64,000 nt of DNA from Escherichia coli (GTDB taxonomy: Bacteria; Pseudomonadota; Gammaproteobacteria; Enterobacterales; Enterobacteriaceae). Positions 21,401-43,281 of the stretch are shown here, piece by piece. How positions within the stretch are numbered: position 1 is the stretch's first letter; each line of letters opens with the position of its first letter. Below the pieces are notes generated by a model that saw nothing but the letters and a program-made list of their open reading frames with translations, was not told the DNA's origin and did not search any database. A program made the translations under genes and the position numbers. The stretch lies in assembly GCF_036507355.1 (NCBI RefSeq), contig NZ_AP027877.1. One strand, written 5' to 3'.

Positions 21401-21554
21401 TAATTCCTTAAAACATAATACGCCGCTTCATTTTATTCTTTATGATCTAATGCACTTTTTGCCTTAAACCTGCCTGTAACAGAATGTTAATAAGACATGA
21501 TTGTTGCGGCAGGATCTGCAATAATTAACAATTATCCACTTCACAGAGAATGCT

Positions 21555-22226
21555 ATGCAGTACCCGATTAACGAGATGTTCCAGACCCTGCAAGGTGAGG
21601 GTTACTTTACCGGCGTCCCCGCCATTTTTATTCGTTTACAGGGATGCCCGGTTGGCTGTGCCTGGTGCGACACCAAACACACCTGGGAAAAGCTTGAGGA
21701 TCGGGAAGTCTCCCTTTTCAGCATTCTGGCGAAGACCAAAGAGAGTGATAAGTGGGGGGCGGCGAGCAGTGAAGACTTGTTGGCTGTCATTAGTCGCCAG
21801 GGATACACCGCGCGGCATGTGGTGATTACGGGTGGTGAGCCTTGCATTCATGATTTGCTACCACTGACTGATCTGCTCGAAAAGAACGGTTTTAGCTGCC
21901 AGATCGAGACCAGTGGTACTCATGAGGTACGCTGCACACCGAATACCTGGGTTACCGTATCGCCAAAGCTGAACATGCGCGGCGGCTATGAAGTGTTGTC
22001 ACAGGCACTGGAGCGAGCCAACGAAATCAAGCATCCAGTGGGGCGCGTACGCGATATTGAAGCACTGGATGAACTATTGGCAACGCTGACCGATGATAAA
22101 CCGCGAGTCATTGCACTGCAGCCGATTAGCCAAAAGGATGATGCCACACGATTGTGCATTGAAACCTGCATTGCGCGTAATTGGCGTTTGTCGATGCAAA
22201 CACATAAATATCTAAATATTGCCTGA
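21555..22226 (+). CDS. queE: 7-carboxy-7-deazaguanine synthase QueE
   Basis: 223-aa radical-SAM ORF (CxxxCxxC-like cluster). Confidence 0.9.
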   Translation: MQYPINEMFQTLQGEGYFTGVPAIFIRLQGCPVGCAWCDTKHTWEKLEDREVSLFSILAKTKESDKWGAASSEDLLAVISRQGYTARHVVITGGEPCIHDLLPLTDLLEKNGFSCQIETSGTHEVRCTPNTWVTVSPKLNMRGGYEVLSQALERANEIKHPVGRVRDIEALDELLATLTDDKPRVIALQPISQKDDATRLCIETCIARNWRLSMQTHKYLNIA

Positions 22227-22565
22227 TTAAACATTTATAAGCGTTATAAATGGGTGGAACCTGTAAAGACTTCTACTCATTTATATTCTTTGTCGCCTCT
22301 GAAAACTCCTCCATTTTACCCATCCAGGGCTAATCATTAGCATTCTCTACAAATTCTGTGGTGTTAATTTTTTGTTGGAGTGAAAATTATTGCGGTAAAG
22401 TTTGGTAGATTTTAGTTTGTATAGAATTATTTTAAATATTTGCCTTTTTAATCAATGGGTTAAGTGCTCTTTAACATAATGGATGTGTTGTTTGTGTGAT
22501 ACTGTAAAGTTGGTAGATTGTGACTGGCTTAAAAAATCATTAATTAATAATAGGTTATGTTTAGA

Positions 22566-22777
22566 GAGTTCCCCGCGCCAGCGGGGATAAACCGGAGAGA
22601 GTCCAGTATCAATCCCGCGATCCGCAGAGTTCCCCGCGCCAGCGGGGATAAACCGCCGTTGCGGATCTTGAGTAGTGCCACGTCACCGAGTTCCCCGCGC
22701 CAGCGGGGATAAACCGGGTACAAAAGAGGCCCCATTCTGGCAGGGCTCGAGTTCCCCGCGCCAGCGGGGATAAACCA
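22566..22777 (+). CRISPR. Type I-E CRISPR array: 4 repeats of 29 bp (GAGTTCCCCGCGCCAGCGGGGATAAACCG) and 3 spacers of 32 bp, AT-rich leader upstream
   Basis: Repeats at 22566, 22627, 22688 and 22749 (61-bp period); last repeat ends in A; degenerate repeat remnant near 22867-22888. Confidence 0.95.
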
Positions 22778-23244
22778 CCATATAACCCGTTATCTCTTTC
22801 TCAAGTTTTTATATTAGCAGTACTTGTAATAAGCAACATATCCACGTAACACCTCATGTTCAAAATAGTTCCCCATGCCAGATAAGTTCACAATTATCGA
22901 TACAAAAAATTAAATTTAATCAAAGTGTTATTTGTATAATTCTTAAGCCGTTAAGAAATTTTAATCTATTATTTTTTTAATATTAATTAATGCCTGTTAA
23001 TTTTTTCTTTAGTATAACAGTGTATTTTTTAAGCTTGTTATTCATTGATTAAGTAATAAATCTGGAAATTTGTCTTTGTTTTGAGGCTAATGAGTGGTTT
23101 TACATAACCGCCTCTATACGCTGTTGATGAATAGTTCTTATGAATAAAGATATCCAGTTCATACTTTAAGTGAAAATTGATAAAGTGCGATTCGTATTGT
23201 CTTTTATTCTAAAGACATCGAGTGTAGTTAATATTCCTTGTAAA

Positions 23245-23368
23245 AACAGGGATAAACCGAACTAGTTAAAGTTTTTATTATGTTCCCTGCATCAGCGGGG
23301 ATAAACCGGACTTGTTATCATTTTTTAAGTTGTCGAACTTATGTTCCCCGCGCCAGCGGGGATAACCA
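23245..23368 (+). CRISPR. Degenerate, vestigial CRISPR array (2-3 mutated repeats, one 32-bp spacer)
   Basis: Partial repeat ending ggataaaccg at 23259, mutated repeats at 23280-23308 and 23341-23368 flanking a 32-bp spacer. Confidence 0.7.
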
Positions 23369-23414
23369 TTCAGGTATGTTCAGGCCGGGCAGTTTCCCGC
23401 CCGGTTTTCCTCAC

Positions 23415-24893
23415 TTACGCATTCGACCAGCTCTGGATCGAATCCGCATTTCCCAATTCCCCATGCATCACTTCATACGATTTTTTCAGAATCACATCAG
23501 TATGTTTGGTTAGGTCTTTGAAAATGCCTTTATTCATCGCGTCGTAGCGTTTGGCATTGCTCTCAATCGGTATAAAGATATCTTTCACGCGAACCATTTT
23601 ATCGACAGCCGTTGCGTAATCCGGGTATAGCCCCAGACCTACCGCGGTATTAATCGCTGCCCCCAGACTTGCACAACCGTTAATGGCGTTACGTCGTGCC
23701 GGAAGGTTGAACACGTCGGCAAAAATCTGCATAAACAGATCGCTGTTCGAACCGCCGCCAGTAATGATCACATGCTTCGCAAAGTGATTCATTTCATTAC
23801 ACATATTGTCGTAATTGTTCTTCAGCGTCAGCGCCACGCTTTCCAGTATCGAACGATATATCCATGCGTAATCCATGCTGGAATCAAAGCCGATCATAAT
23901 CCCGCGTTTGTACGGTTCCCACGGATTGGTCAGCCAGTCCAGCACCGTCATCAGCCCATTACAGCCAGGTGGCACACTAGAGGCTTTCTTGTTGAGTAAA
24001 TCTTCCGGTGAAAGATCCTGCGCCCTGGCATCCTGAATTAACGACTCGCCCAACATGTCGCGCAGCCAGCTCACCGTCCACATGCCTTTGCGAATACCGT
24101 AACCTTCATACAGCAATGTTTGCGGAATAGAAGACATAATCGGCCAGTACGCCACCGGATCTTTCGGCAAGGCTTTGCCGTTCATCATCAATGCGATGTA
24201 AGTGCCAAGAGAAATTACCGCAGTTTCATCATCCAGTAATCCGGCCCCCAGAGCTTCTACCGGTTTATCACTGGTGGTACAAACAACCGGCAGTCCTGCC
24301 GGGAAATGTGTCGCCAGTGCGGCTTGTGGTGTGATATGTCCGAGGACGGTGCCAGGCATTTGCACATCAAACAGCATATGACGAGGGATATTAAACTTCT
24401 CCATTACCGCAGCATCTTCGCTCCATGCCCAGCTCTTATAATCCACCGGCCACTGACCAAAATAGTTGGCGATATTGTCTTTAAACTCGCCGGTTAAGCG
24501 ATGCGTCAGATAACCCGAAAAAGAGGTGACATATGCCACGTCAGGATTCGTAGGTTCGTAAGGGCGTGTAACGCGTGCATCCTGCCAGCTAATCAATGGC
24601 GCAGCTGGCGTGCCATCGGCTTTCAATAACGCACGGCAGCAACGGATGGATCCCAGACCAATACCGACAATATCTTCTTTATTCCCGGCAAACTGACTCA
24701 TCAAATCGTGACCGGCAAAACATAATGATGCCCATAAATCGTCGTCAGGATGTTCTGCAGTATCGGCATCTGGCGTGTGCATCGGCTGCAATAAACCTTT
24801 GCCTTCGCAAACCACATTACCTTCCAGATCGTACATCACCACTTTTGTGCTCTGACTTCCGCCATCAATCCCTATGATATATTTTTTCGACAT
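23415..24893 (-). CDS. ygcE: FGGY-family carbohydrate kinase YgcE
   Basis: 492-aa ORF. Confidence 0.85.
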   Translation of the reverse strand: MSKKYIIGIDGGSQSTKVVMYDLEGNVVCEGKGLLQPMHTPDADTAEHPDDDLWASLCFAGHDLMSQFAGNKEDIVGIGLGSIRCCRALLKADGTPAAPLISWQDARVTRPYEPTNPDVAYVTSFSGYLTHRLTGEFKDNIANYFGQWPVDYKSWAWSEDAAVMEKFNIPRHMLFDVQMPGTVLGHITPQAALATHFPAGLPVVCTTSDKPVEALGAGLLDDETAVISLGTYIALMMNGKALPKDPVAYWPIMSSIPQTLLYEGYGIRKGMWTVSWLRDMLGESLIQDARAQDLSPEDLLNKKASSVPPGCNGLMTVLDWLTNPWEPYKRGIMIGFDSSMDYAWIYRSILESVALTLKNNYDNMCNEMNHFAKHVIITGGGSNSDLFMQIFADVFNLPARRNAINGCASLGAAINTAVGLGLYPDYATAVDKMVRVKDIFIPIESNAKRYDAMNKGIFKDLTKHTDVILKKSYEVMHGELGNADSIQSWSNA

Positions 24894-38219: not shown

Positions 38220-38372
38220 ATGCTAACAAAATATGCCCTTGTGGCAATCATAGTACTGTGTTGTACAGTACTGGGATTCACGCTCATGGTAGGCGACTCG
38301 TTATGTGAGTTGAATATCAGAGAGCGTGGTATGGAGTTTAAGGCAGTTCTCGCTTACGAATCGAAGAAGTAG
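38220..38372 (+). CDS. Hok/Gef-family type I toxin (50 aa)
   Basis: [50 protein letters not shown]: single TM segment then the SLCE..IR…AYES.K signature; AGGGAGG RBS 7 nt upstream. Confidence 0.75.
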
Positions 38373-38761
38373 CCACCACGTGGGGGTAAAACCCCGCGTA
38401 TTGAATTGTGATGGTTTGGTCTCCTGCACCCTTTTTTAAATTTATATTTTTTATGTGAATATATTGTCTCTATTTATTATTATGAATTTCAAATGAAAAT
38501 CATAAATTTATTCACAATATAAATGTTTTATTGGCTGATATATATCACAGATAATTTTTAAAATATGCGTAAATATCCTTTAAGTTTACTGAAGGATAAA
38601 AATATTGTGACTTTCTTTGATTTCTGGGGAAAAACCCGACGCGACGAGAAAGAAGGGGGTGACGACTATCACCTTCTTTGCTGGCATTCGCTGGATGTGG
38701 CCGCGATGGGCTATTTAATGGTTAAAAGAAATTGCTTCGGGCTGGCGGTAATGACTCCAAC

Positions 38762-39265
38762 TTATTGATAGTGTTTTATGTTCAGATAATGCCCGATGAC
38801 TTTGTCATGCAGCTCCACCGATTTTGAGAACGACAGCGACTTCCGTCCCAGCCGTGCCAGGTGCTGCCTCAGATTCAGGTTATGCCGCTCAATTCGCTGC
38901 GTATATCGCTTGCTGATTACGTGCAGCTTTCCCTTCAGGCGGGATTCATACAGCGGCCAGCCATCCGTCATCCATATCACCACGTCAAAGGGTGACAGCA
39001 GGCTCATAAGACGCCCCAGCGTCGCCATCGTGCGTTCACCGAATACGTGCGCAACAACCGTCTTCCGGAGCCTGTCATACGCGTAAAACAGCCAGCGCTG
39101 GCGCGATTTAGCCCCGACATAGCCCCACTGTTCGTCCATTTCCGCGCAGACGATGACGTCACTGCCCGGCTGTATGCGCGAGGTTACCGACTGCGGCCTG
39201 AGTTTTTTAAGTGACGTAAAATCGTGTTGAGGCCAACGCCCATAATGCGGGCTGTTGCCCGGCAT
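38762..39265 (-). CDS. insB: IS1 InsB (expressed as InsAB' by a -1 frameshift)
   Basis: 167-aa ORF overlapping insA in the -1 frame. Confidence 0.9.
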
Positions 39266-39459
39266 CCAACGCCATTCATGGCCATATCAATGATTTTCTG
39301 GTGCGTACCGGGTTGAGAAGCGGTGTAAGTGAACTGCAGTTGCCATGTTTTACGGCAGTGAGAGCAGAGATAGCGCTGATGTCCGGCGGTGCTTTTGCCG
39401 TTACGCACCACCCCGTCAGTAGCTGAACAGGAGGGACAGCTGATAGAAACAGAAGCCAC
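39184..39459 (-). CDS. insA: IS1 InsA
   Basis: 91-aa [26 protein letters not shown]…. Confidence 0.9.
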
Positions 39460-41451
39460 TGGAGCACCTCAAAAACACCATCATACACTAAATCAGTAAG
39501 TTGGCAGCATCACCCGGGCTGGCTGATTATTTTCGTCAATTAGGGATTTCTGACAAGGAACAGGCGGCTCAATTTTTCGCCTGGTTGTTGTGCTGGCACG
39601 ATATTGGAAAATTTGCCCGCTCATTTCAGCAACTTTACCTGCACCCACAACTCAAGGTTCCGGAAGGCGCAAGAAAGAATTACGAAAAGATCTCTCATTC
39701 AACGCTGGGCTACTGGTTGTGGCATCATTATTTAAGTGAATGCGAAGAATTGCTTCCTGCCTCTTCACTCTCTACTCGCAAACTTAAACGTGTAATAGCG
39801 ATGTGGATGCCCATGACTACCGGGCATCATGGTCGGCCCCCTGACCGTATTGATGAACTGGATAATTTTCTGCCTGAAGACAAAGTTGCCGCGCGAGATT
39901 TTCTCCTTGAAATCAAGGCACTGTGTCCGCTCATAGAGATTCCCACATTCTGGGATAATGACGAGGGAGTTGAACTTTTAAAACAACTTTCCTGGTATAT
40001 CTCTGCAACAGTCGTACTTGCAGACTGGACGGGTTCGTCAACGCGATTTTTTCCACGCGTCGCACACCCAATGGATATTAAAGATTACTGGCAGAAAACT
40101 TTAGTTCAGGCTCAAAACGCCTTAACCGTCTTTCCTCCAAAAGCAGAAACCGCACCTTTCACCGGAATTAATACGCTGTTTCCTTTTATTGAGCACCCGA
40201 CACCATTACAGCAAAAGGTGCTGGATCTGGATATCAGCCAGCCAGGGCCACAGTTATTTATTCTGGAAGACGTGACTGGCGCAGGTAAAACAGAAGCGGC
40301 GCTTATCCTGGCGCACAGGTTGATGGCTGCGAGGAAAGCACAGGGTTTGTTTTTTGGCCTGCCAACAATGGCAACGGCCAATGCCATGTACGATCGGCTG
40401 GTCAAAACCTGGCTTGCTTTCTATTCGCCAGAGTCCCGCCCCAGCCTGGTGCTGGCACACAGTGCCCGCACATTAATGGACCGCTTTAATGAATCACTCT
40501 GGTCCGGTGATTTAGTCGGGTCAGAAGAACCGGATGAACAAGCGTTCAGTCAAGGATGTGCAGCCTGGTTTGCCGACAGTAACAAGAAGGCTTTACTGGC
40601 TGAAATTGGCGTCGGCACGCTGGATCAGGCGATGATGGCGGTGATGCCGTTCAAACATAATAATCTGCGGCTTCTGGGGCTGAGTAACAAAATCCTGCTG
40701 GCTGATGAGATCCACGCCTGTGACGCTTACATGTCATGCATTCTTGAAGGGCTGATCGAGCGGCAGGCGCGTGGTGGAAACAGCGTCATTTTGCTTTCTG
40801 CTACGTTATCCCAACAGCAGCGCGACAAACTCGTCGCCGCCTTTGCGCGTGGCACAGAGGGCCAGCAAGAAGCTCCGTTCCTTGAAAAGGATGATTACCC
40901 CTGGCTGACGCATGTCACGAAATCCGATGTGAACTCACACCGGGTAGCGACGCGCAAAGACGTTGAGCGTAGCGTCAGCGTGGGTTGGCTTCATAGTGAA
41001 CAAGAGAGTATTGCGCGTATCGAATCGGCGGTAAGTCAGGGAAAATGCATCGCCTGGATCCGCAATTCTGTCGATGACGCTATTAAGGTTCATCGTCAGC
41101 TGCTTGCCCGCGGCGTCATTCCCGCTTCCAGCCTTTCACTCTTTCATAGCCGCTTTGCTTTTAGCGATCGCCAGCGAATCGAAACGGAAACGCTGGCACG
41201 CTTTGGTAAAAATTGTAATTTAAAAAGATCATCGCAAGTCATTGTTTGTACACAAGTAATTGAGCAAAGTGTGGATATTGACCTGGACGAAATGATCTCC
41301 GACCTTGCCCCCATTGATTTGCTGATCCAGCGAGCGGGGCGATTACAGCGACATATCCGCGATATTAATGGTCAGTTAAAGCGTGACGGAAAAGACGAGC
41401 GTTCCCCTCCTGAATTGCTGATTCTGGCCCCCGTCTGGGACGACGCTCCTG

Positions 41452-41781
41452 GTGACGAATGGTTCGGCAGTGCCATGCGTACGCGCCTTTACAGAGGCCG
41501 CGCTTAAAGTCTCACCAACCGGAAAACAAAACAGCTTTGCCAGCCGTGCCTACGCCTCCTGGGCGCTGGCGGAAAAAGGCACTGTTCAACCGCGTTCTCT
41601 GGCGGCGGCTTTCTATGAACCCATTAATGGTACCCGTCAGTTAGATGTGGCGGTGCAGCGTATTACAACGCTTCGCGAAAACATGAATACGGTCTACGAA
41701 CAGAAGACTGAATGCGCAAGTTTTGACGTGATGAACAAACAGGGAAGCATGAAGGACGTACTGGACTTTATCTGCGCGTAA
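41452..41781 (+). pseudogene. 3' remnant of a cas gene, most plausibly the end of cas7/casC fused out of frame to cas3
   Basis: 109-aa frame ending 10 bp before the cas5 ATG, the position casC occupies in an intact I-E operon; the alternative reading is a frameshifted cas3 tail. Confidence 0.4.
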
Positions 41782-41791
41782 GGGGCGGCTT

Positions 41792-42973
<1,182 letters not shown>

Positions 42974-43069
42974 GTTATGTGTTCTTTAAAAATAAGGAAA
43001 TGTTTGAATTTAGTTGGTAGATTGTTGATGTGGAATAAATTTGTTTAAAAACAGATATGTATGCTTAGT

Positions 43070-43281
43070 GTGTTCCCGGCGCCAGCGGGGATAAACCGAC
43101 GAGGGGCTCGTTATTCGGGAAATTACAAAAGTGTTCCCCGCGCCAGCGGGGATAAACCGGCCCAGGGATTTGTTCAATCCAGCGTGCCGCTGTGTTCCCC
43201 GCATCAGCGGGGATAAACCGGGCGCACTGGATGCGATGATGGATATCACTTAGAATTCCCCGCCCCTGCGGTAGAACTCCC
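43070..43281 (+). CRISPR. Type I-E CRISPR array next to cas2: 3 repeats GTGTTCCC(C/G)GCGCCAGCGGGGATAAACCG plus a degenerate terminal repeat, 3 spacers of 32 bp
   Basis: Repeats at 43070, 43131 and 43192, degenerate repeat at 43253; 61-bp period; AT-rich leader at 42974-43069. Confidence 0.95.

What the first reader, a model, noticed from the sequence alone, without database searches (positions are those of the whole stretch)
22566..23368. Second CRISPR locus between queE and ygcE: a 3-spacer array plus a degenerate array
Array A has canonical repeats and an AT-rich leader upstream; array B has mutated repeats. Array A spacers are gagagagtccagtatcaatcccgcgatccgca, ccgttgcggatcttgagtagtgccacgtcacc and ggtacaaaagaggccccattctggcagggctc. 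Because the cas genes are decayed, these spacers are a frozen record of past encounters and can be used for strain typing. The leaders of arrays A and the cas2-proximal array share the motif gttggtagattgt.
Basis: seen in the sequence. Interest (0 to 1): 0.45.

Follow-up and report, generated by a model that had tools for sequence, protein, structure and literature searches.

The report
Known E. coli CRISPR-II locus, orphaned
This is the well-described second type I-E CRISPR locus of Escherichia coli/Shigella (a short CRISPR2.3 array plus the species-wide invariant CRISPR2.2 relic), stranded next to a wrecked cas operon; it is ordinary, though its three spacers do trace to a lambdoid prophage, a P2-like prophage and F-plasmid traD.

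Summary
Array A (22566-22777) has four 29-nt type I-E repeats and the three 32-nt spacers as quoted. Array B (23231-23369) has three degenerate repeats.

Both are already described: they are CRISPR2.3 and CRISPR2.2 of the ygcE-queE "CRISPR-II" locus. Array B, spacers included, is near-identical in K-12 and present in 4,039 of 5,426 complete E. coli genomes, so it carries no strain information.

The cas decay is real: IS1 sits in cas3, two deletions remove cse1, cse2, most of cas7 and cas5, and all of cas6e, and Cas1 lacks residues 1-39. No crRNA maturation, interference or normal adaptation is expected.

All three spacers have foreign protospacers with a type I-E PAM:
- sp1: 32/32 in a lambdoid prophage, PAM ATG.
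- sp2: 32/33 in a P2-like portal gene, PAM AAG.
- sp3: 29/32 in traD of more than 1,500 F-like plasmids, PAM ATG.

sp3 is the trailer-end anchor spacer in about 80 E. coli genomes; sp1 and sp2 are lineage-specific.

The shared leader motif lies at -57 to -45 in both leaders. That is the published Cas1-Cas2 anchoring region.

One caveat for "frozen": a near-clonal genome with the same cas deletions lacks exactly the repeat+sp1 unit. Loss there is more likely than gain here.

The parts
22227..22565 (+). Leader of CRISPR2.3: an AT-rich stretch (30% G+C) between the queE stop and the first repeat.
   Evidence: About 98% identical to the K-12 leader. Composition. PMC3903273 states that leader 2.3 is similar in all E. 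coli.
22509..22521 (+). Leader motif GTTGGTAGATTGT at -57 to -45 from the leader-repeat junction. It coincides with the published Cas1-Cas2 binding block CBS2 (-46 to -57), which contains the integrase anchoring site (-50 to -53).
   Evidence: Searches show the same register in leader 2.1 of the window, K-12 and B4103-1. Positions of CBS2 and the anchoring site are from PMC5224486. The mapping assumes that paper uses the same 29-nt repeat start.
22566..22777 (+). Array A, which is CRISPR2.3: four 29-nt type I-E repeats and three 32-nt spacers (sp1 22595-22626, sp2 22656-22687, sp3 22717-22748). The terminal repeat ends in A instead of G.
   Evidence: The repeat RNA folds into a 7-bp stem with a 4-nt loop, -15.1 kcal/mol, z = -3.6. 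The terminal repeat is identical to that of K-12.
22778..23230 (.). AT-rich interval (28% G+C) separating CRISPR2.3 from CRISPR2.2, conserved in K-12.
   Evidence: PMC3903273 describes the two arrays as 'separated by 0.5 kb'. It has no significant similarity to the leader and no credible ORF.
23231..23369 (+). Array B, which is CRISPR2.2: three degenerate repeats (23231, 23280, 23341) and two invariant spacers (20 nt at 23260-23279, 32 nt at 23309-23340).
   Evidence: One difference from K-12 across the array, in the third repeat; both spacers are identical to K-12. At least 95% identical in 4,039 of 5,426 complete E. coli genomes. [quoted passage not shown] All three repeats still fold into the hairpin.
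38565..41481 (+). cas3 remnant, split by an IS1 element (38747-39514, 768 bp, 9-bp target duplication) and missing its 3' ~560 bp.
41480..41877 (+). A fragment made of the 3' ~300 bp of cas7/casC and the first ~86 bp of cas5e. It is all that is left of the Cascade genes: cse1, cse2 and cas6e are absent.
41820..42973 (+). Truncated cas1 and intact cas2. The cas1 ORF encodes 19 unrelated residues followed by Cas1 residues 40-306. cas2 encodes 97 aa.
43070..43281 (+). cas2-proximal array CRISPR2.1: three repeats plus a degenerate terminal repeat, and three spacers. Its leader (42974-43069) carries the same motif at 43013.
   Evidence: The last spacer is shared with K-12 and B4103-1.

Best explanation
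The region is the CRISPR-II locus of the E. coli/Shigella type I-E system. It consists of a leader, a short CRISPR2.3 array (array A), a conserved 0.45-kb AT-rich interval, and the species-wide invariant CRISPR2.2 relic (array B).

In an intact strain the locus works as follows. The leader carries the promoter and the IHF and Cas1-Cas2 docking sites. Cas1-Cas2 inserts new 33-bp prespacers at the leader-repeat junction. The pre-crRNA is cut by Cas6e at the base of each repeat hairpin. Cascade plus Cas3 then destroy DNA that carries the protospacer next to an AWG PAM.

In this genome that machinery is gone. cas3 is split by IS1 and truncated. cse1, cse2 and cas6e are deleted. cas7 and cas5e are stubs. 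Cas1 has lost its first 39 residues. Array A is therefore an orphan memory that can at most be transcribed, but not matured or used (inferred).

Its content records three past invaders in leader-distal to leader-proximal order:
- sp3: an F-like plasmid, in traD. This is an old spacer, 3 mismatches from known traD, and is the anchor spacer of a widespread CRISPR2.3 spacer group.
- sp2: a P2-like phage, in the portal gene, 1 mismatch.
- sp1: a lambdoid phage, perfect match.

Since the cas decay the array can only shrink by repeat-repeat deletion. That is the likeliest reason why a near-clonal relative lacks the repeat+sp1 unit.
For: Shown by the sequence and tools:
- Repeats, spacers and register are as described.
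- The leader, terminal repeat, interval and array B align colinearly with K-12, with array B near-identical.
- Array B is present in 4,039 of 5,426 E. coli genomes.
- The cas lesions are mapped against an I-E1 reference.
- The repeat hairpin folds as expected.

Protospacers with PAMs:
- sp1: 32/32 in a ttcA-integrated lambdoid prophage of STEC384 and STEC379, preceded by ATG.
- sp2: 32/33 in the portal gene of a P2-like prophage of strain N1420, preceded by AAG.
- sp3: 29/32 in traD of 1,507 conjugative plasmids, preceded by ATG. Two of the three differences are synonymous in the traD reading frame, and two fall at positions 18 and 30.
- Three of three AWG PAMs has a chance probability of about (1/32)^3.

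Spacer distribution:
- sp3 is the trailer-end spacer in the three other arrays read in full (L020, L031, L036) and occurs in about 80 E. coli CRISPR arrays, including O145:H28, O157:H7, O55:H7 and O169:H41.

Literature:
- Locus nomenclature and leader conservation: PMC3903273.
- Arrays shorten after cas decay and lose spacers in cas-inactive periods: PMC2886076.
- The leader anchoring site is at -50 to -53: PMC5224486.

The roles of Cas6e, Cascade, Cas3 and Cas1-Cas2 are established knowledge of type I-E, not tested here.
Against: - Transcription of the array and absence of crRNA were not measured. The consensus promoter scan found no promoter on the + strand inside the leader, so promoter placement rests on the literature.
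- Only 64 kb of the genome is visible. A second I-E cas set or a Cas6e gene elsewhere, for example on a plasmid, cannot be excluded.
- The relative that lacks sp1 could equally mean that sp1 was added after the shared cas deletions, which would contradict 'cannot gain'.
- No protospacer was found in the two phage collections. The phage assignment rests on prophages annotated in a few E. coli chromosomes.
Confidence: 0.9

Rival explanations
1. The array is not frozen. sp1 was inserted at the leader-repeat junction after the cas locus had already suffered the two deletions. The insertion would have been made either by the N-terminally truncated Cas1 together with intact Cas2, or by Cas1-Cas2 supplied in trans by a mobile element.
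For: - GCA_905398585.1 has the identical deletion junctions and the same hybrid Cas1 ORF, with only 4 SNPs in 21 kb and 3 SNPs in 7.5 kb.
- It differs by exactly one 61-bp unit at the leader-proximal position, which is where Cas1-Cas2 inserts.
- sp1 is the only spacer with a perfect protospacer, consistent with it being recent.
- cas2 and Cas1 residues 40-306 are intact and 99% identical to a full-length Cas1.
- The leader anchoring motif is intact.
Against: - Cas1 lacks 39 N-terminal residues, replaced by 19 unrelated ones.
- In the window an IS1 lies between the cas3 start and cas1-cas2.
- Deletion of one unit between two identical 29-bp repeats needs no Cas protein. It is the pattern the literature reports for cas-inactive periods (PMC2886076).
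- Collapse of one unit in a short-read assembly of the relative is also possible.
- No other genome with sp1 was found that could polarise the change.
Confidence: 0.15
2. Array B (CRISPR2.2) is not a dead relic but a maintained functional element. For example, in cas-proficient strains it could be a fixed mini-array whose invariant 32-nt spacer gives a crRNA with a housekeeping or regulatory target.
For: - All three degenerate repeats keep the 7-bp stem and 4-nt loop that Cas6e recognises.
- The most diverged repeat (18/29 identical) keeps it through two double C-G to U-A changes and one G-U pair.
- The array and both spacers are near-identical in K-12 and are present in 4,039 of 5,426 genomes.
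- A hairpin followed by a U-run lies directly after it on the array strand.
Against: - The surrounding non-repeat interval is almost as conserved (about 97-98% to K-12), so the invariance is simply the low species-level divergence.
- The first spacer is only 20 nt.
- The 32-nt spacer has no match outside the locus in the phage or plasmid collections.
- E. whittamii has none of it except the terminal repeat.
- It persists here without any Cascade.
- No leader-like sequence precedes it.
Confidence: 0.05
3. The spacer matches are chance or self matches, so the array records nothing about foreign DNA.
For: - There are no hits in INPHARED or IMG/VR.
- The sp3-traD match has E = 0.02 on its own.
Against: - The 32/32 and 32/33 matches have E of about 1e-6 to 1e-5 in 28 Gb.
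- All three are flanked by AAG or ATG in the correct orientation.
- The hits lie in prophage and conjugation genes.
- Two of the three sp3 differences are synonymous in traD, and the sp3 match recurs in more than 1,500 plasmids.
Confidence: 0.01

Closest known systems
E. coli CRISPR-II locus (ygcE-ygcF/queE), arrays CRISPR2.3 and CRISPR2.2 (Diez-Villasenor/Almendros/Mojica nomenclature). It is called 'CRISPR2' by Touchon & Rocha and 'CRISPR II' in K-12.
   Same: - Same flanking genes and same orientation.
- Same leader (about 98% to K-12).
- Same 29-nt repeat and the same aberrant terminal repeat (..ACCA).
- Same 0.45-0.5 kb interval.
- Near-identical CRISPR2.2: one difference from K-12, in its third repeat, with both invariable spacers identical (PMC3903273, PMC4489801).
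   Different: Only the CRISPR2.3 spacer content and number differ: 3 spacers here against 6 in K-12. sp1 and sp2 were not found in the CRISPR array of any of the 5,426 complete E. coli genomes.
Degraded type I-E (cas-E1 variant) loci of Shigella and some E. coli, with IS insertions, truncations and short arrays.
   Same: - An IS1 in cas3, internal deletions of the Cascade genes, and arrays shortened to about three spacers each.
- This matches the description of decayed loci in PMC2886076 and the IS-promoted deletions in PMC3903273.
- cas1-cas2 is only about 71% identical to K-12 (the E2 variant) and about 94% identical to E1-type operons.
   Different: - The exact pair of deletion junctions was found in only 5 public contigs and in none of the 5,426 complete E. 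coli genomes.
- Only one IS is seen in the cas region, and the species label of the source is unknown.
CRISPR2.3 spacer group anchored by GGTACAAAAGAGGCCCCATTCTGGCAGGGCTC, found in O157:H7, O55:H7, O145:H28, O169:H41 and other strains.
   Same: sp3 is the identical trailer-end spacer next to the terminal repeat.
   Different: The spacer next to the anchor differs in the two other arrays read in full (L031, L036): CGATCTTTTCC... there, sp2 here.

Membership tests
CRISPR array, type I-E (E. coli repeat cluster 2) | At least 3 direct repeats of about 29 nt at a constant period of about 61 nt, separated by unique spacers of 32-33 nt. | tested here: met
   Array A has 4 repeats with a period of exactly 61 nt and 3 unique 32-nt spacers.
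CRISPR array, type I-E (E. coli repeat cluster 2) | The repeat sequence and its palindromic core form the Cas6e hairpin. | tested here: met
   The repeat is identical to the K-12 repeat except at its second position. It folds into a 7-bp stem with a 4-nt loop, -15.1 kcal/mol, z = -3.6.
CRISPR array, type I-E (E. coli repeat cluster 2) | An AT-rich leader with a conserved Cas1-Cas2/IHF docking region on one side, and a degenerate terminal repeat on the other. | tested here: met
   The leader is 30% G+C. The motif sits at -57 to -45, matching the anchoring-site region. The terminal repeat ends in A. The IHF site is only loosely recognisable.
CRISPR array, type I-E (E. coli repeat cluster 2) | Spacers derive from mobile DNA, with protospacers flanked by the AWG PAM. 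| tested here: met
   ATG, AAG and ATG lie upstream of the protospacers in a lambdoid prophage, a P2-like prophage and F traD.
CRISPR array, type I-E (E. coli repeat cluster 2) | The array is transcribed and processed into crRNA. | not testable with these tools
   There are no expression data. cas6e is absent from the window.
E. coli CRISPR-II locus (CRISPR2.3 + CRISPR2.2) | Located between ygcE and ygcF/queE, with the leader on the queE side. | tested here: met
E. coli CRISPR-II locus (CRISPR2.3 + CRISPR2.2) | CRISPR2.2 consists of 3 repeats and 2 invariable spacers, about 0.5 kb from CRISPR2.3. | tested here: met
   One difference from K-12, in the third repeat; both spacers are identical. 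The gap between arrays is 453 bp. Present in 4,039 of 5,426 genomes. Definition from PMC4489801.
Functional type I-E CRISPR-Cas system | A complete cas3-cse1-cse2-cas7-cas5-cas6e-cas1-cas2 operon. | tested here: not met
   IS1 lies in cas3. Two deletions remove cse1, cse2 and cas6e and most of cas7 and cas5e. Cas1 lacks residues 1-39. Only this 64-kb window was examined.

The most novel reading that the evidence does not exclude
The leader-proximal spacer sp1 was acquired after the cas operon had already decayed. Adaptation at an orphan CRISPR2.3 leader would then have been carried out by a Cas1 lacking its first 39 residues together with Cas2, or by Cas1-Cas2 borrowed in trans. The only evidence is that a near-clonal genome with the identical cas deletions lacks exactly the repeat+sp1 unit.
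Probability: 0.12. Interest if true: 0.5.

Novelty: already known. Interest (0 to 1): 0.12.

Why it matters
It matters little beyond annotation and typing.

The locus is a standard, published feature of E. coli and Shigella genomes, and the decay of its cas partner is a known pattern.

Practical value:
1. Array A gives a short lineage signature (sp1-sp2 on the common sp3 anchor). It distinguishes even near-clonal isolates, as shown by a relative that differs by one unit.
2. Array B should be ignored for typing because it is fixed in the species.
3. The spacer targets (F-type traD, a P2-like portal gene, a lambdoid early gene) add three PAM-validated protospacers to the sparse catalogue for E. 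coli I-E arrays.

Tried and rejected
- Phage databases. blastn of the three array-A spacers against INPHARED found nothing, and the same was true for the array-B and CRISPR2.1 spacers. IMG/VR scans for sp1 and sp2, with N at every sixth position, also found nothing. The protospacers turned up only as prophages inside E. coli chromosomes.
- Self-targeting. None of the three spacers has a second copy in the window within 3 mismatches. The rest of the genome is not available.
- Literature search for the three spacer strings: no paper.
- Rfam scan of 21500-24000: only a sub-threshold chance hit (Chlorobi-1, 19 bits against a gathering score of 50). It was rejected.
- The idea that the 453-bp interval is a second leader was rejected. 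Local alignment to leader 2.3 scores no better than shuffles.
- A possible fifth repeat relic at 22866-22894 (16/29) is at chance level and does not fold. It is not counted as part of the array.
- Identifying the source organism failed. The exact Cas2 and QueE proteins are too widespread to be informative. No complete E. coli genome carries the same cas deletions. Only 5 public contigs do, and their species label is not given by the tools. I initially misread the 94% identity as a divergent species. The pairwise alignment shows about 98% identity to K-12 outside the spacers.
- An apparent cluster of 15 mismatches left of the array in the relative was an artefact of the repeat overlap. A global alignment gives 3 SNPs plus the 61-bp indel.

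Full report

Yes. Reading 22000-24000, the repeat finder and a pattern search all show the array.

- Four copies of GAGTTCCCCGCGCCAGCGGGGATAAACCG start at 22566, 22627, 22688 and 22749, with a period of exactly 61 nt. The last copy ends in A instead of G.
- The repeat, within 3 mismatches, occurs 9 times in the window and never in 100 shuffles. The other copies are array B and a three-repeat array at 43070-43220 just after cas2.
- Array B has repeat-like copies at 23231 (18/29), 23280 (24/29) and 23341 (24/29, with a 1-nt deletion). They are separated by 20 nt and 32 nt.
- The leader (22227-22565) is 30% G+C, against 51% for the window.
- queE (21555-22226, +) and ygcE (23415-24893, -) flank the locus.

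**2. What is it?**

A pairwise alignment with the K-12 MG1655 ygcE-queE intergenic region is colinear and about 98% identical everywhere except in the array-A spacers. The conserved parts are the leader, the aberrant terminal repeat, the 453-bp AT-rich interval and array B. Array B shows one difference from K-12, in its third repeat, and both of its spacers are identical.

The literature names these elements. The I-E system of E. coli is split between CRISPR-I (iap-cysH, holding array CRISPR2.1 and the cas genes) and CRISPR-II (ygcE-ygcF). CRISPR-II holds CRISPR2.3 with its leader, and CRISPR2.2 lies 0.5 kb away (PMC3903273). [quoted passage not shown]

Array B at 95% identity or better is present in 4,039 of 5,426 complete E. 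coli genomes, always as a single copy. Array A is therefore CRISPR2.3 and array B is CRISPR2.2. The locus as a kind is already known.

**3. Are the cas genes decayed?**

Yes. The family scan and a comparison with an E1-type operon from E. coli B4103-1 show the following.

- cas3 starts at about 38565.
- A 768-bp IS1 with a 9-bp target duplication sits at 38747-39514.
- cas3 continues to 41481, where a deletion joins it to the last ~300 bp of cas7.
- A second deletion at 41876/41877 joins the first ~86 bp of cas5e to nucleotide 117 of cas1.
- cse1, cse2 and cas6e are absent.
- The cas1 ORF (41820-42683) encodes 19 unrelated residues plus Cas1 residues 40-306, which are 99% identical to a full-length Cas1.
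- cas2 is intact.
- The operon is the E1 variant: about 71% nucleotide identity to K-12 cas1-cas2 and about 94% to E1 operons.

From established knowledge of type I-E, pre-crRNA is not matured without Cas6e. Without Cascade and Cas3 there is no interference. An N-terminally truncated Cas1 is unlikely to support adaptation. These functional consequences are inferred, not measured.

**4. What do the spacers record?**

blastn of the three concatenated spacers gave the following results.

- sp1 matches 32/32 in a ttcA-integrated lambdoid prophage of E. coli STEC384 and STEC379. The match lies in an early-region gene annotated as a type I restriction endonuclease.
- sp2 matches 32/33 in the portal gene of a P2-like prophage of strain N1420.
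- sp3 matches 29/32 in traD of 1,507 plasmids, 1,500 of them typed as conjugative, including the F plasmid itself.

The three bases upstream of each protospacer, on the spacer-identical strand, are ATG, AAG and ATG. These are the type I-E AWG PAM, whose G is the last base of the repeat. The chance of three out of three is about (1/32)^3.

For sp3, the mismatches are at spacer positions 14, 18 and 30. Two of the three are synonymous in the traD reading frame, which fits a diverged traD allele as the source. Positions 18 and 30 are sixth positions, which are not read by Cascade (established knowledge).

Match quality falls from the leader-proximal spacer to the leader-distal one (0, 1 and 3 mismatches). 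This is as expected for chronological insertion.

There was no hit in INPHARED or IMG/VR, and no second copy in the window.

**5. Typing value**

- sp3 is found, as a perfect copy, in about 80 E. coli CRISPR arrays, including O145:H28, O157:H7, O55:H7 and O169:H41.
- In the three other arrays read in full, it is the trailer-end spacer next to the terminal repeat. It is the anchor of a widespread spacer group.
- sp1 and sp2 were found in no CRISPR array of the 5,426 complete genomes.
- Array B is invariant and useless for typing.

**6. The leader motif**

GTTGGTAGATTGT starts 57 nt upstream of the first repeat in both leaders. It aligns with GTTGGTGGGTTGT in K-12 leader 2.1.

Yoganand et al. 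defined the leader block CBS2 at -46 to -57 and, within it, the integrase anchoring site at -50 to -53. This site is needed together with IHF for Cas1-Cas2 integration (PMC5224486). The motif spans -57 to -45, so it is that element. The mapping is by coordinates and assumes the same repeat start.

**7. A caveat to 'frozen'**

The hybrid Cas1 ORF is a rare marker: only 5 public contigs encode it. One of them, GCA_905398585.1, compares with the window as follows.

- It is 99.96-99.99% identical over 21 kb of the cas side and has the same two deletion junctions, but no IS1 in cas3.
- On the CRISPR-II side it differs by 3 SNPs in 7.5 kb and by the absence of exactly one 61-bp unit, window 22565-22625. 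That unit is a repeat plus sp1.
- CRISPR2.1 is identical in both.

Two readings are possible. The unit may have been lost in the relative by repeat-repeat deletion or by assembly collapse. Alternatively, sp1 may have been gained here after the shared cas deletions.

Loss needs no Cas protein. It also matches the published picture that cas-inactive periods are associated with loss of spacers and that arrays shrink as cas decays (PMC2886076). I put loss at about 85% and gain at about 12-15%. A clone phylogeny would settle the question.

**8. Side observations**

- All three degenerate CRISPR2.2 repeats still fold into the canonical 7-bp stem. The most diverged one does so through two double C-G to U-A changes.
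- The surrounding non-repeat DNA is almost as conserved, and E. whittamii has only the leader fused to a single repeat with the CRISPR2.2-type 3' end. I therefore regard CRISPR2.2 as a fixed relic rather than a maintained element.
- Part of leader 2.3 aligns with the cas2 stop region plus leader 2.1. This suggests that CRISPR-II arose as a duplicate of the cas2-end, leader and array segment.

**9. Verdict**

The feature is the already known, ordinary CRISPR-II locus in a cas-decayed lineage. Interest is low.

Noticed in passing
window 22565-22625, compared with L020 (GCA_905398585.1): A near-clonal public genome has identical cas deletion junctions. It lacks exactly the leader-proximal repeat+sp1 unit and also lacks the IS1 in cas3. 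The direction of the change (loss or gain) is unresolved.
   Followed up: partly
window 23231-23369: The three 'degenerate' CRISPR2.2 repeats all keep the 7-bp stem and 4-nt loop hairpin. The most diverged one (18/29) keeps it through two compensatory C-G to U-A changes and one G-U pair.
   Followed up: partly
L037 2940-3130 (Escherichia whittamii Sa2BVA5): The CRISPR-II locus is reduced to leader 2.3 fused to a single repeat with the CRISPR2.2-type end (GGGGATAACCATTCAGG). It has no interval and no spacers. Its leader also lacks the ~108 bp that lie between the two GGTAGATT motif copies in E. coli.
   Followed up: no
window 22401-22413 and 22509-22521: The leader-anchoring motif is present twice in leader 2.3 (TTTGGTAGATTTT and GTTGGTAGATTGT), 108 bp apart. 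Only the proximal copy is in register with leader 2.1.
   Followed up: no
window 22450-22490, compared with 42962-43000: Leader 2.3 aligns with the last bases of cas2, including its stop codon position, plus the start of leader 2.1. This suggests CRISPR-II originated as a duplication of the cas2-end, leader and array segment.
   Followed up: no
window 38747-39514: A complete IS1 (768 bp, 9-bp target duplication) is inserted about 180 bp into cas3. It is absent from the near-clonal relatives L017 and L018.
   Followed up: yes
window 38220-38372: A Hok/Gef-family toxin ORF (50 aa core) lies between cysH and cas3. This is the position of hokX/sokX in K-12.
   Followed up: no
window 23382-23410: A 9-bp G+C-rich hairpin followed by a U-run on the + strand lies immediately after array B and is convergent with the ygcE stop. 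It is plausibly a bidirectional terminator. The simple terminator scan did not list it.
   Followed up: partly
window 43221-43252: The last spacer of the cas2-proximal array, GGCGCACTGGATGCGATGATGGATATCACTTA, is shared with K-12 (1 mismatch) and with B4103-1. This holds even though K-12 carries the other cas variant (E2).
   Followed up: partly
window 22866-22894: A repeat-like stretch, TAGTTCCCCATGCCAG..., matches the repeat at 16/29 and lies 117 nt after the terminal repeat. It is conserved in K-12 but is at chance level and does not form the hairpin.
   Followed up: yes
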